Positions 18,202 to 52,101 of a DNA stretch of 64,000 nt are shown here, piece after piece. The position numbers were made by a program, and so were the translations under genes. The stretch lies in NCBI GenBank assembly GCA_019057385.1, contig JAHQJS010000004.1, forward strand, positions 32,001-96,000. The letters are read 5' to 3'. The notes beneath the pieces are model-generated. The model was not told where the DNA came from and made no database searches. It saw only the letters and a program-made list of their open reading frames with translations. Origin of the DNA: Candidatus Borrarchaeum weybense. Its GTDB lineage: Archaea > Asgardarchaeota > Sifarchaeia > Borrarchaeales > Borrarchaeaceae. Position 1 is the stretch's first letter, and every line of letters starts with the position of its first letter.

Positions 18202-19686
18202 TTGAGGAATTATATGAAACGGTTTAGACGCTATTTGCTCAGAAAAATACTGAGAAATAAACGAGTGTATGAATTTTATTTGTTTGCCATTATAAAAGCG
18301 CGGTCAATAAAGCATAAAATAGAGAGAATAAAGGCGAAAATATTCCCTCCTAAATATCTCTCAATTCATCCAAATATACTCTTACTCTCAATAGACTCTT
18401 TGAGACCTGATCATTTAGGTTGCTATGGATATCATAGAAATACTTCACCAAACATCGATAAATTGGCTAAAAACTCAGCAATCTTTACTAATGCCATTTG
18501 CCAAGCCCCATGGACTAAACCATCTATTGGGAGTCTGTTTACTGCTGTAAATCCAGGTGTCCACGGCGCAGATAAAGGAGGAAAATTTGGCCAAGATATC
18601 GCTAGAATTTCAAGCAGAACTGATGCAATAGGCTTAAGGGACATGATACCTACGCTGACAGAAAAATTGAAAGAGGGAGATTATATAACAGCTGGATTCA
18701 CGGGAGGTGGATACACACATTCTATTTTTGGACTTGACAGGGGCTTTGATATCTATAAAGCTAATCTCAGTCTAATGGATTTAATTAATTTTGAAGTATT
18801 TTCGTTCCTCAATAGAGATTTTAAAAAACCAATATTCTTGTTTATCCATACGTTCGATGTGCATTTTCCCTATCATAACAAGAAACCCTATAATCGATTA
18901 TTTGGAAAGTTTGATTCTCGAATAAATATGAGCAAACAACTTTCATTGGATATAAATTATGGCAGATTTACTCCCTCAGACGAAGATATTCAACATATGA
19001 TCACACTATATGATGGAAGCATTTTTTATATTGACCAACGAATTGGCTTCTTGCTTGAGATGCTGCAAACATTAGGATTTATGCAAAATGTGATGATAAT
19101 TCTCACCGCAGATCATGGGGAAGGGTTTATGGAACATGATTTAGTAGGACATAGTGAAATCATCTACAATGAAGTTTTACGAATACCTTTAATCATTTAT
19201 CACAGCAATATGACCTCAAAAAGAGTCGTATCAAATCTAGTTAGATCGATTGATCTGATGCCAACACTCTTAGAATTTGCAAATATTCCTTGTGATAACT
19301 TTATTCAGGGTAAAGGTTTACTACCTTTGTTAGAAAAAGAAGCGTCATACGACGAAGCGGCCTTTAGTGAGACTGAAAGGCTCGGTGGTATACAGGCAAT
19401 TCAGACACAGGAAGGCTATAAATTCGTTTATTGGAAGAAAACAGAGAAAAAAGAACTTTATGACCTGAACAACGATCCCTTAGAAAGAAAAAATATAATA
19501 CAACTAATGCCTGAAAAGGCAGAAGAATTGGAACATAAGTTATTTGAAATAATAAGAGAGTCAGAAGATCTCAGTAAACGAATAGAAGCGATGAAAAAAG
19601 ATAAAACAAGCGAGAGAAAAGAAATTTCTGAGGAAGATATTGAAGCAGTCACGGCAAGGTTGCGAGCATTGGGCTACATAGACTAG
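18202..19686 (+). CDS. Sulfatase-like hydrolase
   Basis: IDSLRPDHLGCYGY, WTKPS, TADHGE, RLRALGYID. Confidence 0.9.
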   Translation: MRNYMKRFRRYLLRKILRNKRVYEFYLFAIIKARSIKHKIERIKAKIFPPKYLSIHPNILLLSIDSLRPDHLGCYGYHRNTSPNIDKLAKNSAIFTNAICQAPWTKPSIGSLFTAVNPGVHGADKGGKFGQDIARISSRTDAIGLRDMIPTLTEKLKEGDYITAGFTGGGYTHSIFGLDRGFDIYKANLSLMDLINFEVFSFLNRDFKKPIFLFIHTFDVHFPYHNKKPYNRLFGKFDSRINMSKQLSLDINYGRFTPSDEDIQHMITLYDGSIFYIDQRIGFLLEMLQTLGFMQNVMIILTADHGEGFMEHDLVGHSEIIYNEVLRIPLIIYHSNMTSKRVVSNLVRSIDLMPTLLEFANIPCDNFIQGKGLLPLLEKEASYDEAAFSETERLGGIQAIQTQEGYKFVYWKKTEKKELYDLNNDPLERKNIIQLMPEKAEELEHKLFEIIRESEDLSKRIEAMKKDKTSERKEISEEDIEAVTARLRALGYID

Positions 19687-19840
19687 CATACCATTGTGAA
19701 TTAATTGACAATAATACTAAAGAAGGATCAAACTACAAAAAAAAATTAGGTGTGAAAGTCATTGAGCGACGATCAATACTACTAAAAAACAGAATTCTCT
19801 TTTTATAGAAAAATGAGATCTCGATCTATACTATAAAACT

Positions 19841-21433
19841 TTGAAAATATCTTTTCGAAGAGGAAACCCTATGACAACTTCGAGAAAATCAAAAGTGGCA
19901 CGGGATATTGCACGAGGATCCTCAGCATTAATGATTCAGAAAATATCACTCACAATTATGGGTGTAGTATATGGAGCAGTTCTTGCACGTCTATTAGGGC
20001 CATTAAACATTGGATTAATTGCGTTAGCAAATTCTATTGCCTTTTTAATAGGCATTATGTCAGGAGTTGTCCTTTCAGGCCTAAAACCAGCAATGATTCG
20101 CCACCTTGCATATTATATTGCTAGCAAAGAATACGGAATTGCAAAAGACATCTATAAAAAAGGTCTAATAATGCATTTAATAGTCGGCAGTATTTCAACA
20201 GTTCTTATTATCATTACAGCCGATATGATCGCAAATCTTGTATTTAATAGTCCTGAGCTAACGTTATTGATCACACTTACAGCCTTTTCGATTTCTGTGG
20301 AAGTAGCAAATCGATTTGTAGGTTCACTCTTTGAGAGTTTGAAGTTTTTTGGGAGTTATTCAACTTTGATCATAATTAACACTGGGGGTAGGATGGCACT
20401 TAGTTTATTATTGTTTTTTATTGGTTATGGAGTCCCAGGAGTAATTGCAGGAGGAATCATCGCAGGTGGATTCACAAGCATAATTGGCTATTTATTCATT
20501 CGCAAAAAACTTCCTTTTATTCATGCAAAACCAGAAAGTAATGATGATAATGGACTTAAAAAACTTTTCTCATTCAGTATAATTTATAGTATTAGCTACG
20601 TCTTTTATACAATATATCAACAGGCACCCTATCTTATTTTAGGCTACTATCTCACGCCAGATGTTGTTGGATATTATTCATATGCATATAACATTGCAAA
20701 TCGCCCCTCAATGCTGGGCTATACTTTTTATACAACATTGCTCCCGTCGATGTCAGAAATATACGCGGAAGACGATATCGCTTTGATGAGGAAAACATAT
20801 AGTTCTATGATAAAGTATCTAATGGTATTTTCTACGTTTTTCTCAATGCTCATAATCGTTTTTGCAAGAGAACTTATTATCATCCTTGCTGGACCAGAAT
20901 TTTTACCTGCAGTTCCACTCCTCCAAATATTATCGCTAGTGAGTATACTTAGGATCATAGGCGCACCAATGCAAGCAGTTTTGTTAACCTTCGAAAGACT
21001 TGACTTTGTATTATATCCAACAGCACTAAGATCTGTCATGATTGTTGTATTGCTTTTTCTATTGGTTCCTCCTTATGGTTACATAATAGTCCCCATCGTT
21101 GTCGTTATAAGCTGGTTTGTGTCAATTGTAATGGCTATATCTCTTACCAATCGGGAAATTTCTGTTCATATTCCAATCTCTAATTTCATTAAACCTGTAA
21201 TGTGCCTGCTTATTTCGTCAAGCGTTCTGCTGTTACCTCTACTTTCAAACTATATCTTATATACTATAATAAAGTTGTTTGGCGCACTTACATTGTTTTT
21301 AATAAGTGTAGTGCTGACGTCAACACTTATAAAAGAAGATATAAAGACAATTGAATTAGTTAAAATAAGACATGAATTAATTGCGCACATACTTCGAAAG
21401 GGCATAAAAGTCTTAAGAAAAATATTGCGCTGA
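19841..21433 (+). CDS. Oligosaccharide flippase (Wzx/MATE-like)
   Basis: ARLLGP, VGYYSYA, many TM segments; start probably 19871. Confidence 0.9.
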   Translation: MKISFRRGNPMTTSRKSKVARDIARGSSALMIQKISLTIMGVVYGAVLARLLGPLNIGLIALANSIAFLIGIMSGVVLSGLKPAMIRHLAYYIASKEYGIAKDIYKKGLIMHLIVGSISTVLIIITADMIANLVFNSPELTLLITLTAFSISVEVANRFVGSLFESLKFFGSYSTLIIINTGGRMALSLLLFFIGYGVPGVIAGGIIAGGFTSIIGYLFIRKKLPFIHAKPESNDDNGLKKLFSFSIIYSISYVFYTIYQQAPYLILGYYLTPDVVGYYSYAYNIANRPSMLGYTFYTTLLPSMSEIYAEDDIALMRKTYSSMIKYLMVFSTFFSMLIIVFARELIIILAGPEFLPAVPLLQILSLVSILRIIGAPMQAVLLTFERLDFVLYPTALRSVMIVVLLFLLVPPYGYIIVPIVVVISWFVSIVMAISLTNREISVHIPISNFIKPVMCLLISSSVLLLPLLSNYILYTIIKLFGALTLFLISVVLTSTLIKEDIKTIELVKIRHELIAHILRKGIKVLRKILR

Positions 21434-51238: not shown

Positions 51239-51289
51239 GTAGTAAATAACTGATTTTCAGTCCCAGGCGCATATCGACGATTTTATGTT

Positions 51290-51806
51290 TCATTCCATAA
51301 TAGTTTCAAGGATAACATGGGCAGAAGTCTTTTTAACTCCTGAAATTGCTGCAAGGTCTTTTAGAAAAGAGTCTAACTTAGCACGTCCAACCTGTGCAAT
51401 CAAATCTAGTTCTGATCCAGTCACCCGAAATAACCGTTGTGCTCTTAACGCCTTAATTTGGTCGTATGCTTCTTTTCGTCGTTCAGGATCGATCTGTATA
51501 AACACGAATGCTTCAGTTACAGATTCGCCAAGGGCTTCCATGGCTTTGTTTGTGAGGTCTATAAAGCCTCTACCAGTGCGGATAAAATCTATGTCTCTTA
51601 GCTTTCTTAGGTGGTTGGATAGGGCCTGACGGGTTATACTTAATTCATCACTCAGTTCATTTTGAGTTAAGACAATGGTGTGAACCTTTACGCTTTTTCA
51701 GGCACCTTAGAGCGGGAAGATCAACTCAAGTGGTGATTCCTGCAGCGTAAAGTTTTTTCAAGATCTGTAATTGTCTATCTGTAATTTTAACAACATTGCT
51801 GGCCAT
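51290..51806 (-). CDS. HTH/Lrp-AsnC-family transcription regulator, 158 aa, in two exons (51806-51737 and 51696-51290)
   Basis: GGAGG SD plus ATG at 51806. Spliced product MASNVVKITDRQLQILKKLYAAG|KSVKVHTIVLTQNELSDELSITRQALSNHLRKLRDIDFIRTGRGFIDLT..., then an AsnC/RAM domain (AFVFI, RVTG..DLI). Confidence 0.85.
51697..51736 (-). other. 40-nt bulge-helix-bulge mRNA intron
   Basis: Exon stem CUUUACGCU/AGCGUAAAG, central helix CAGG/CCUG, bulges AAU and AAA, intron stem CACC/GGUG; excision restores the frame. Confidence 0.85.
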
Positions 51807-52101
51807 GTTATATCCTCCGTTATTCTTGTTTACATGGCATTAAAATGGAATTTACATATTTACACATTTAATTATTTATTTGTAAAAAAAAGCTTACATA
51901 TTAAAAAAGTTGTGCAAGTTTTCAAATCAAAAACTGATTCTGATGTCAATATTATGATTATTTATAAAACCGTGAAATTATTTACGAAATTCCAAGTTTT
52001 ATGATAATCATATATCAATTATAATAAGCATGTAAAAAAAGAAAAAAAGAGAGGTTTGATGTCAATACCAAAGATGCAATGGACACTTTTTTTGAGATTT
52101 G

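What the first reader, a model, noticed from the sequence alone, without database searches (positions are those of the whole stretch)
51290..51806. tRNA-type (BHB) intron inside the mRNA of a transcription factor
Seen: the minus-strand RNA reads CUUUACGCU-G-CAGG-AA|U-CACC...GGUG-CCUG-AA|A-A-AGCGUAAAG. This gives a 9-bp exon-exon stem, one G-A mismatch, a 4-bp central helix (CAGG/CCUG), a 3-nt bulge 3' of the helix on each strand, and a 4-bp intron stem. Cutting after the second nucleotide of each bulge removes 40 nt (51697-51736). That joins exon 1 (SD, ATG, 23 codons + 1 nt) in frame to the HTH and AsnC domain, giving 158 aa. Unspliced, exon 1 stops at UGA after 26 aa. The exon-2 frame is closed by another UGA at the intron end and has no ATG/GTG/TTG before the HTH. 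Established: this geometry and cut rule is the substrate of archaeal splicing endonuclease EndA; the well-known archaeal mRNA example is cbf5 in some crenarchaeotes. Inference: a spliced protein-coding gene in a probable Asgard archaeon, which gene callers would truncate to an 83-aa fragment.
Basis: partly seen in the sequence, partly recalled or inferred. Interest (0 to 1): 0.95.

Follow-up and report, generated by a model that had tools for sequence, protein, structure and literature searches.

The report
tRNA-type intron splitting an Asgard regulator gene
A 40-base insert shaped like an archaeal tRNA intron interrupts a small DNA-binding regulator gene in one clade of Asgard archaea (Borrarchaeum/Sifarchaeia); cutting it out at the predicted sites restores the protein that intron-free relatives encode, so the mRNA is very probably spliced, which the papers I could search report for only one archaeal coding sequence (cbf5).

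Summary
Observation confirmed and interpretation supported. Direct RNA evidence is still missing.

- **Structure:** on the minus strand, exon 1 (51806-51737) and exon 2 (51696-51290) are separated by 40 nt (51736-51697). The minimum-energy fold is a canonical hBHBh' motif.
- **Splice product:** cutting by the EndA rule gives a 158-aa Lrp/AsnC-type protein. It is colinear, without a gap, with 157-158-aa intron-less orthologs.
- **Distribution:** five diverged alleles from independent assemblies and studies carry the 40-nt insert at the same site. They form one clade. Its sister (90-92% nt identity) has the empty site.
- **Selection:** within the intron clade both exons are under strong purifying selection (pN/pS 0.02-0.09). 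This includes exon 1 and the HTH codons that have no start codon of their own. The BHB core is invariant while the intron loop varies.
- **Machinery:** the genome encodes a catalytic EndA subunit with the broad-specificity loop lysine, a second EndA paralog lacking the catalytic His, and RtcB.
- **Same genome:** its TBP gene carries three BHB inserts, which I verified.
- **RNA data:** public RNA contigs did not cover the junction.
- **Chance:** the motif alone is not rare in this genome. Significance comes from its coincidence with the indel.
- **Prior finds:** this scan has already reported BHB introns in protein genes of other Asgard genomes and elsewhere in this genome. The papers I could search report only cbf5, plus one 5'-UTR case.

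The parts
51814..51818 (-). Shine-Dalgarno-like GGAGG, 7 nt upstream of the ATG
   Evidence: Read directly. The upstream region and the start position are conserved in intron-bearing and intron-less orthologs.
51737..51806 (-). Exon 1: ATG + 23 codons + 1 nt (MASNVVKITDRQLQILKKLYAAG + A), encoding helix 1 of the winged HTH
   Evidence: Among intron-bearing alleles exon 1 shows up to 5 synonymous and 0 non-synonymous differences. In the intron-less ortholog P0002 the MarR/MarR_2/HTH_11 profiles start at residues 8-11 and run across residue 23/24.
51697..51736 (-). 40-nt BHB intron (UCACC...GGUGCCUGAA), closed by stop codons in all three frames
   Evidence: Absent from orthologs L003, L004, L010/L028, L024, L029 and L033. 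Present, with loop variation, in L001, L002/L008/L020/L021/L025/L026, L009/L027 and L022/L023.
51686..51752 (-). Complete hBHBh' motif: outer exon-exon helix 9 bp (51752-51744 with 51694-51686), G.A mismatch, central 4-bp helix (51742-51739 with 51702-51699), 3-nt bulges (51738-51736; 51698-51696), inner helix (51735-51732 with 51706-51703)
   Evidence: The MFE fold equals this structure. The central helix and both bulges are invariant in 5 alleles. The inner helix has one C>U change that keeps pairing as U.G.
51710..51729 (-). 20-nt core in the intron loop (TTGAGTTGATCTTCCCGCTC), shared with a small genus-restricted family of hairpin elements
   Evidence: 7 hits in the own genome against 1 in the control. 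nhmmer finds 6 strong copies. 1-6 copies in 4 of the 5 genomes of the genus (own included), 0 in 26 other Asgard genomes.
51290..51696 (-). Exon 2: 2 nt + 134 codons + stop (K)SVKVH...ETIME*, covering the rest of the wHTH and the Lrp/AsnC (RAM-like) C-terminal domain
   Evidence: MarR_2 31.6 bits, HTH_24 22.6, AsnC_trans_reg 20.1 bits, below its cut-off of 25. 148 homologs found.

Best explanation
The gene is an Lrp/AsnC-type winged-helix regulator interrupted by a 40-nt archaeal bulge-helix-bulge intron. Proposed mechanism: the pre-mRNA folds so that exon 1 and exon 2 pair (9 bp) and present a 4-bp helix flanked by two 3-nt bulges. The host splicing endonuclease, a catalytic alpha subunit plus a non-catalytic paralog (alpha-beta type), cuts after the second nucleotide of each bulge. 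RtcB joins the exons and probably circularises the intron. The mature mRNA then encodes the 158-aa regulator. Unspliced mRNA gives only a 26-aa peptide. The intron was gained once, recently, in the Borrarchaeum-like clade, probably from a genus-specific family of small hairpin elements. Shown: the anatomy, the exact restoration of the ortholog sequence, one gain on the tree, selection on both exons and on the BHB core, and the presence of the enzymes. Inferred: cleavage and ligation in vivo, the circular intron, and the source of the intron.
For: (1) Canonical hBHBh' as the MFE structure. (2) The EndA cut rule gives a product colinear with contiguous 157-158-aa orthologs, with no gap or extra residue at AG|KSVKVH. 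The empty sites read GCTGCAGGAAAAAGCG in L004, identical to the predicted spliced junction, and GCTGCAGGAAAGAGCG in L033. (3) Five distinct intron-bearing alleles from independent assemblies and studies, always 40 nt at the same site, so this is not an assembly artefact. (4) Synteny is the same with and without the intron: S7e-like, Alba, regulator, PMT_2. (5) The intron alleles form one clade (90/95), sister to intron-less L033 (95/95), so one change suffices. (6) Since the gain, pN/pS is 0.02-0.09 over the spliced CDS. Exon 1 has up to 5 synonymous and 0 non-synonymous differences. HTH codons 24-75, which have no start codon of their own, have 9 synonymous and 1 non-synonymous. 36 of 50 variable CDS columns are third positions. 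(7) The 8 variable intron positions are all in the loop, except one C>U that keeps the inner-helix pair. The central helix and bulges are invariant. (8) The EndA catalytic subunit is closest to the A. pernix alpha subunit 3p1z_B (E 6e-42) and keeps the Lys44-equivalent of the broad-specificity loop. A second paralog lacks the catalytic His. Full-length RtcB is present. (9) In the same genome, removing three BHB-defined inserts (30, 37, 31 nt) gives one continuous two-repeat TBP. [quoted passage not shown]
Against: There is no RNA-level observation of the spliced junction or of a circular intron. A BHB motif of this quality is not rare by chance in this AT-rich genome (35 real against 48 control), so the structure alone proves little. 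With only five closely related alleles there is no true double-sided compensatory change. There is one wobble-preserving change, and a synonymous AAG>AAA change that shortens the outer helix to 8 bp in three alleles. The 3' bulge is followed by a G.A mismatch, so the loop is formally 1x4 nt. A cut one nucleotide further on would break the frame.
Confidence: 0.85

Rival explanations
1. The insert is a small mobile-element insertion that disrupted the gene. No splicing occurs. The lineage makes at most a truncated 83-aa C-terminal fragment, or the gene is a young pseudogene.
For: The intron loop carries a 20-nt core shared with other short elements in the genus, and one of these is present in one genome and absent at the orthologous site of another. 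This looks like a mobile DNA family. A 3-nt direct repeat (GAA) flanks the insert. Gene callers see only 83 aa.
Against: Both exons stay under strong purifying selection in the frames predicted for the spliced mRNA, across alleles that diverged to pS about 0.25 after the insertion. This includes exon 1 (0 non-synonymous) and codons 24-75, which cannot be translated without exon 1. No further frameshifts or stops occur in five alleles. The BHB core is invariant while the loop varies.
Confidence: 0.07
2. Translational bypassing (ribosome hopping of the phage T4 gene 60 type): the ribosome takes off at Gly23 GGA, skips about 40 nt held in a hairpin, and lands just before AAA AGC. The same 158-aa protein is made without RNA splicing.
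For: The skipped segment is a stable hairpin of similar size to the gene 60 gap (50 nt, from my own knowledge). The triplet before the resumption codon is UGA, which shares 2 of 3 bases with the take-off codon GGA. The product would be identical to the spliced product, so comparative data cannot separate the two.
Against: The take-off and landing codons do not match (GGA against UGA). No stop codon directly follows the take-off codon; the stop is 3 codons later. The geometry is exactly that of the EndA substrate. The genome is full of BHB inserts in tRNA genes and in TBP, including sites with other flanking codons, which hopping would not explain.
Confidence: 0.03
3. The RNA is processed at the BHB but the exons are not religated. 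Cleavage acts as a switch that destroys or down-regulates the mRNA, or releases a small RNA from the 40-nt segment, rather than as productive splicing.
For: EndA also cuts non-intron substrates such as rRNA precursors and a 5'-UTR element in Haloferax (PMC7714728). The loop core is conserved in non-coding sites as well, so the excised RNA might have a role of its own.
Against: Purifying selection on exon 1 and on the start-less HTH codons requires that a full-length protein is made. RtcB is present.
Confidence: 0.05

Closest known systems
BHB intron in the cbf5 pre-mRNA of Crenarchaeota (Aeropyrum, Sulfolobales, Desulfurococcales; Watanabe 2002, Yokobori 2009, PMC2738675)
   Same: A short BHB intron lies inside a protein-coding sequence. 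It is predicted or shown to be cut by a hetero-oligomeric splicing endonuclease. Presence and absence are lineage-specific, and gene prediction is broken by the insert.
   Different: The host gene differs (an Lrp/AsnC-type regulator, not a pseudouridine synthase). The phylum differs (Asgard, class Sifarchaeia / Borrarchaeaceae). The gain is much younger: the sister lineage at 90-92% nt identity lacks the intron. Splicing is not yet shown at the RNA level here, whereas cbf5 splicing was shown experimentally.
BHB element in the 5' UTR of HVO_1309 mRNA, Haloferax volvanii (PMC7714728)
   Same: It is an mRNA substrate of the archaeal splicing endonuclease outside tRNA and rRNA.
   Different: That element lies in the untranslated leader and does not interrupt the reading frame. 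Here the intron sits inside the DNA-binding domain, and the protein cannot be made without its exact removal.
Non-canonical and multiple tRNA introns, and their proposed transposition, in Thermoproteales and Asgard archaea (tRNA census preprint 10.64898/2026.10.13.758758; Fujishima 2010 from my own knowledge)
   Same: They have the same motif and the same enzymes. Families of related intron sequences occur at different sites, and gain is lineage-specific. The host family is reported to carry about 2 intervening sequences per tRNA gene.
   Different: The host is an mRNA. Frame restoration adds a constraint that tRNA introns do not have.
Earlier follow-ups of this scan on other Asgard genomes (fbp, radA, EF-1alpha, cbf5, MoxR-like, EF-2/MvhD, thioredoxin, lsrF)
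   Same: They describe the same kind of short BHB insert in protein genes, with the same comparative signature.
   Different: These are AI notes that I did not check. The genes and lineages differ. One of them (Jordarchaeum EF-2/MvhD) claims RNA-derived contigs that lack the intron, which is not available here.

Membership tests
Archaeal BHB (splicing-endonuclease) intron | Two 3-nt bulges on opposite strands separated by a 4-bp helix, flanked by helices (hBHBh') | tested here: met
   the MFE structure has a 9-bp outer helix, a 4-bp central helix, bulges AAU and AAA (the latter next to a G.A mismatch), and a 4-bp inner helix.
Archaeal BHB (splicing-endonuclease) intron | Cutting after the 2nd bulge nucleotide on each strand yields the functional mature sequence | tested here: met
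   The spliced product has 158 aa and is colinear with intron-less orthologs. The predicted junction GCTGCAGGAAAAAGCG is identical to the empty site of L004.
Archaeal BHB (splicing-endonuclease) intron | The motif is conserved among carriers while the rest of the intron is free to vary | tested here: met
   In 5 alleles there are 8 variable positions. 7 are in the loop and 1 is a C>U that keeps a U.G pair. The central helix and bulges are invariant. No double-sided compensatory change is available at this depth.
Archaeal BHB (splicing-endonuclease) intron | The host encodes EndA and an RtcB-type ligase | tested here: met
   Two PF01974 matches. The alpha-like copy keeps the Lys44 equivalent. 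The second copy lacks the catalytic His. RtcB scores 582 bits.
Archaeal BHB (splicing-endonuclease) intron | Spliced RNA and an excised (circular) intron are observed, or cleavage is shown in vitro | not testable with these tools
None reached the junction.
Lrp/AsnC family transcriptional regulator | N-terminal winged HTH | tested here: met
   Exon 2 alone: MarR_2 31.6 bits (cut-off 27), HTH_24 22.6 (21.9), matching profile positions 18-21 onward. In the intron-less ortholog P0002 the match starts at residue 8 and spans the intron site.
Lrp/AsnC family transcriptional regulator | C-terminal AsnC/RAM ligand-binding domain (PF01037) | tested here: inconclusive
   The window's product scores 20.1 bits, below the cut-off of 25. 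The ortholog P0010 scores 30.3 bits. Many homologs are named Lrp/AsnC by their sources.
T4 gene 60-type translational bypass | Matching take-off and landing codons, with a stop codon directly after the take-off codon | tested here: not met
   The take-off codon would be GGA and the triplet before the resumption is UGA. The first in-frame stop is 3 codons after GGA.
Group I / group II self-splicing intron | Ribozyme core of hundreds of nucleotides | tested here: not met
   The insert is 40 nt. There is no Rfam match at the gathering threshold or at E<=1.

The most novel reading that the evidence does not exclude
The intron is a recent copy of a genus-specific family of mobile mini-hairpins, with the shared 20-nt core TTGAGTTGATCNNCCCGCTC. 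These can land in coding sequence and are tolerated because, with a few complementary bases, they build an EndA substrate. On this reading, this Asgard lineage is undergoing an ongoing invasion of protein genes (this regulator, TBP and others) by endonuclease-spliced introns, and splicing efficiency may gate production of transcription factors.
Probability: 0.25. Interest if true: 0.88.

Novelty: new member of a known kind. Interest (0 to 1): 0.74.

Why it matters
In the papers I could search, archaeal mRNA splicing by the tRNA-splicing endonuclease is documented for one coding sequence (cbf5, Crenarchaeota) and one 5' UTR. This locus is a well-supported case in a different gene and in Asgard archaea, the closest prokaryotic relatives of eukaryotes.

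The gain can be dated between two lineages that are 90-92% identical, with the empty site preserved. That makes intron gain in a protein gene directly studiable.

There is also a practical consequence. Public annotations of this gene in NCBI, JGI, ENA and Logan records are wrong: they give an 83-aa fragment, or a TGA=W read-through artefact. The same is likely for other genes of these genomes, since the TBP of this genome needs three such excisions.

If many genes are affected, EndA/RtcB splicing becomes a general step of gene expression in these archaea.

Tried and rejected
**1. Structure-only genome scans.** None showed enrichment.
- A strict hBHBh' pattern gave 11,247 hits against 10,952 in the reversed genome.
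- The highest-quality class gave 35 against 48.
- ORF-merging hits equalled the number expected from random placement.
- A relaxed motif gave 219,967 hits. The canonical cut rule merged ORFs no more often than cuts shifted by 1-2 nt (2,563 against 2,544-2,805).

Such scans therefore cannot count the mRNA introns of this genome. The TBP introns escaped the strict scan because their outer helices are only 1-2 bp.

**2. RNA evidence.** One RNA-library contig (X20) covers only 51268-51443. One 'probably DNA' contig (X19) covers 51404-51672. There were no joints and no coverage of the junction, so nothing can be said either way.

**3. Spliced products in the protein collection.** No 158-aa product with the intron clade's own sequence appears there. 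The only 158-aa member of the 83-aa cluster (P0138) comes from an intron-less genome.

**4. P0142 (177 aa).** It looked like a read-through allele, but it is a table-4 (TGA=W) gene call. It also reads through the real stop codon.

**5. Stop-codon recoding.** Sec and Pyl recoding is reported for Borrarchaeaceae (PMC9723677). I rejected it here because 40 nt is not a multiple of 3, all three frames are closed, and allele L001 has TAA where the window has TGA.

**6. Rfam.** There is no family match for the insert or for the L015 element.

**7. Other copies of the 20-nt core.** They lie in regions without long ORFs, and most do not form a convincing BHB.

The only PF01592 match in the genome is intact, so I could not reproduce it with that family. 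The secY Pfam match is unbroken over profile positions 1-306, so that lead was not confirmed either; the break may lie outside the matched part.

**9. Bacterial promoter/terminator scan.** It is not informative for an archaeon.

Full report
**1. The observation**

Read on the minus strand, the locus has the following parts.
- A GGAGG box at 51818-51814.
- An ATG at 51806.
- 23 codons plus one base (MASNVVKITDRQLQILKKLYAAG + A), ending at 51737.
- A 40-nt segment, 51736-51697.
- An open frame that runs to the stop at 51292-51290.

Unspliced, the first frame stops at TGA after 26 residues. The second frame is closed by TGA at 51700-51698. It has no ATG, GTG or TTG before Met76, which is why the ORF list gives only an 83-aa ORF. 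All three frames are closed inside the 40 nt.

- a 9-bp exon-exon helix;
- one G.A mismatch;
- a 4-bp helix CAGG/CCUG;
- 3-nt bulges AAU and AAA, each 3' of that helix on its own strand;
- a 4-bp inner helix CACC/GGUG.

This is the geometry of pre-tRNA introns at position 37/38, cut after the second bulge nucleotide (established knowledge of EndA substrates). Applying that rule removes 40 nt and gives a 158-aa product.

**2. Is it more than chance?**

The motif alone is not. I scanned the whole 4.18-Mb genome for the pattern. There were 11,247 hits against 10,952 in the reversed sequence. For motifs as good as this one, there were 35 against 48.

The significance lies in the coincidence with independent evidence for an insertion. 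I searched with the exon-2 translation (P0001). The search returned contiguous proteins of 157-158 aa at 82-92% identity. One is annotated from a Sifarchaeia MAG. Their N-termini read MASNVVKITERQLQILKELYNAGKSVKVHTIVL... The predicted spliced product is colinear with them, with no gap or extra residue at AG|KSVKVH.

At the DNA level the empty sites read GCTGCAGGAAAAAGCG (L004) and GCTGCAGGAAAGAGCG (L033). The L004 site is identical to the predicted junction. Because of the flanking GAA repeat, four cut offsets would give the same product, and the BHB rule picks one of them. A motif of this quality falling on one of four offsets at a given site has a chance of about 2e-5 (my estimate).

**3. 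Not an artefact**

The same 40-nt insert, at the same site, occurs in five distinct alleles from independent sources:
- the window;
- a Logan assembly (L001);
- GCA_029856345 and Ca. Borrarchaeum yapensis JAEOSF01, plus four JGI contigs (L002, L008, L020, L021, L025, L026);
- Promethearchaeota DZ3M.366 (L009/L027);
- two further JGI contigs (L022/L023).

A DNA contig from yet another study also spans it (X5). No DNA contig shows a joint. Synteny (S7e-like, Alba, regulator, PMT_2) is the same in carriers and non-carriers.

**4. Evolution**

On a maximum-likelihood tree of the (spliced) coding sequences, the five carriers form one clade (90/95). Its sister is the intron-less L033 (95/95), which is 90-92% identical in nucleotides. 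More distant intron-less orthologs lie outside: Ca. Sifarchaeum marinoarchaea, S. subterraneum and others. One gain suffices.

The carriers have since diverged to pS of about 0.25, while pN/pS is 0.02-0.09. The pattern by region is as follows.
- Exon 1: up to 5 synonymous and 0 non-synonymous differences.
- Codons 24-75 (the HTH, which cannot be translated from any start of its own): 9 synonymous to 1 non-synonymous.
- 36 of 50 variable columns are third positions.

Both exons are therefore translated, in the frames that only precise removal of the 40 nt connects.

Within the intron, the eight variable positions are 4, 7, 10, 17, 18, 21, 22 and 30. Seven lie in the loop. Position 4 is a C>U that turns a C-G pair of the inner helix into U.G. 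The central helix and both bulges never vary. A synonymous AAG>AAA change removes the ninth outer pair in three alleles. All carriers use TAC for Tyr20, which makes a C-G pair. Five of six non-carriers use TAT. This is weak but in the expected direction.

**5. The machinery**

The genome has two PF01974 genes.
- One is closest to the catalytic subunit of the A. pernix alpha-beta enzyme (3p1z_B, E 6e-42). It aligns through the Crenarchaea-specific loop and keeps a lysine at the Lys44 position (IRKPKH against VEKPRG). Lys44 is the residue shown to be needed for broad substrate specificity (PMC3241643).
- The other aligns with Ala in place of the catalytic His. It is probably the structural subunit.

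A full-length RtcB is present.

**6. Context in the same genome**

An earlier first-stage note said that the TBP gene has three such inserts. I checked this. The second TBP repeat is split over three frames. Three segments are bounded by 4-bp helices with 3-nt bulges and long inner stems (C6:542850-542879, 543062-543098, 543190-543220). Removing them gives one continuous two-repeat TBP. Their outer helices are only 1-2 bp, which explains why my strict scan missed them.

[quoted passage not shown] ARAGORN finds few tRNAs here, and half of them carry introns. Two other leads (secY, nifU) were not reproduced with the Pfam families I tried.

**7. The intron's loop**

The 20-nt core TTGAGTTGATCNNCCCGCTC recurs at five to seven other places in this genome, against one in the control. 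It occurs in 4 of the 5 genomes of the genus (own included), and in none of 26 other Asgard genomes searched. A copy in G002 (L015) is missing from the orthologous site of this genome. The gap in the pairwise alignment is about 42-43 nt, and 36 nt on my hand realignment. Another copy is orthologous across three genomes.

The other copies lie in regions without long ORFs, and most are not convincing BHBs. I read this as a small lineage-specific element family from which the intron derives. Its function is unexplained.

**8. Rivals**

- A pseudogenising insertion is contradicted by the selection data.
- Stop-codon recoding cannot bridge a 40-nt shift, and allele L001 has TAA at the first stop.
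- Gene 60-type bypassing would give the same protein. However, it lacks matched take-off and landing codons (GGA against UGA), and it would leave the BHB geometry and its conservation unexplained.
- Cleavage without religation is contradicted by selection on exon 1.
- Group I and II introns are excluded by size and by Rfam.

**9. What is missing**

Direct RNA evidence is missing. The single read-laying run found RNA-library contigs that stop short of the junction.

**10. Comparison with what is known**

The held literature names cbf5 of Crenarchaeota as the only BHB intron inside an archaeal coding sequence, plus a 5'-UTR element in Haloferax (PMC2738675, PMC7714728). Searches combining Asgard, BHB and protein-coding terms found no report.

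This scan has already noted the same phenomenon in other Asgard genomes and elsewhere in this genome. I checked only the TBP note. The present case is therefore a new member of a known kind: the same mechanism as cbf5, in a new gene and a new phylum, with an unusually well-resolved recent gain.

**Verdict**

My confidence that this is a genuine spliced BHB intron is 0.85, and I score interest at 0.74.

Noticed in passing
G000 C6:542850-542879, 543062-543098, 543190-543220 (outside the window): The TBP gene of the same genome is split by three BHB-bounded inserts (30, 37, 31 nt). Removing them gives one continuous two-repeat TBP. Inserts 1 and 3 sit at the equivalent VCT|G position of the two repeats and have similar ends (CTGYACATTTAG...TAAAGCAGAATGGAG).
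   Followed up: yes
window 51710-51729 (-); G000 C4:508958, C5:200652, C5:407750, C7:30811, C7:67265; L015:1501-1532: A 20-nt core TTGAGTTGATCNNCCCGCTC is shared by the intron loop and by a few intergenic hairpins. It is restricted to this genus among 31 genomes searched. One copy is present or absent between congeneric genomes, and another is orthologous across three genomes. Its function is unknown.
   Followed up: partly
G000 C4:663774-664019 and C5:195898-196158: There are two EndA paralogs. One is catalytic with the Lys44-type loop of the A. pernix alpha subunit. The other has Ala at the catalytic His position. This suggests an alpha-beta heteromeric, broad-specificity enzyme in an Asgard archaeon.
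   Followed up: partly
G000 contig C1 (179 kb, GC 0.39): The contig carries clusters of uninterrupted tRNA genes (for example seven in 19435-19896) and a second RtcB match that comes in two pieces (query positions 1-88 and 132-426, with 89-131 unmatched) within one 409-aa open frame. This is unlike the intron-rich tRNAs elsewhere. It may be contamination (CheckM-type contamination 7%) or a mobile or viral replicon.
   Followed up: no
G000 C7:143743-143811 (-): ARAGORN calls a tRNA-Pyl (CTA). This agrees with the published report of pyrrolysine recoding in Borrarchaeaceae (PMC9723677).
   Followed up: no
P0142 (ENA contig, 177 aa) and P0141 (117 aa): Public gene calls of this locus include a TGA=W (table 4) read-through of the intron and of the true stop codon, and a call that starts at a non-standard codon. 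These are further annotation artefacts caused by the intron.
   Followed up: yes
window 1-64000: There is no tRNA (ARAGORN) and no Rfam family at the gathering threshold in the whole 64-kb window. Given the intron load of this lineage, split RNA genes could be hidden from both tools.
   Followed up: no
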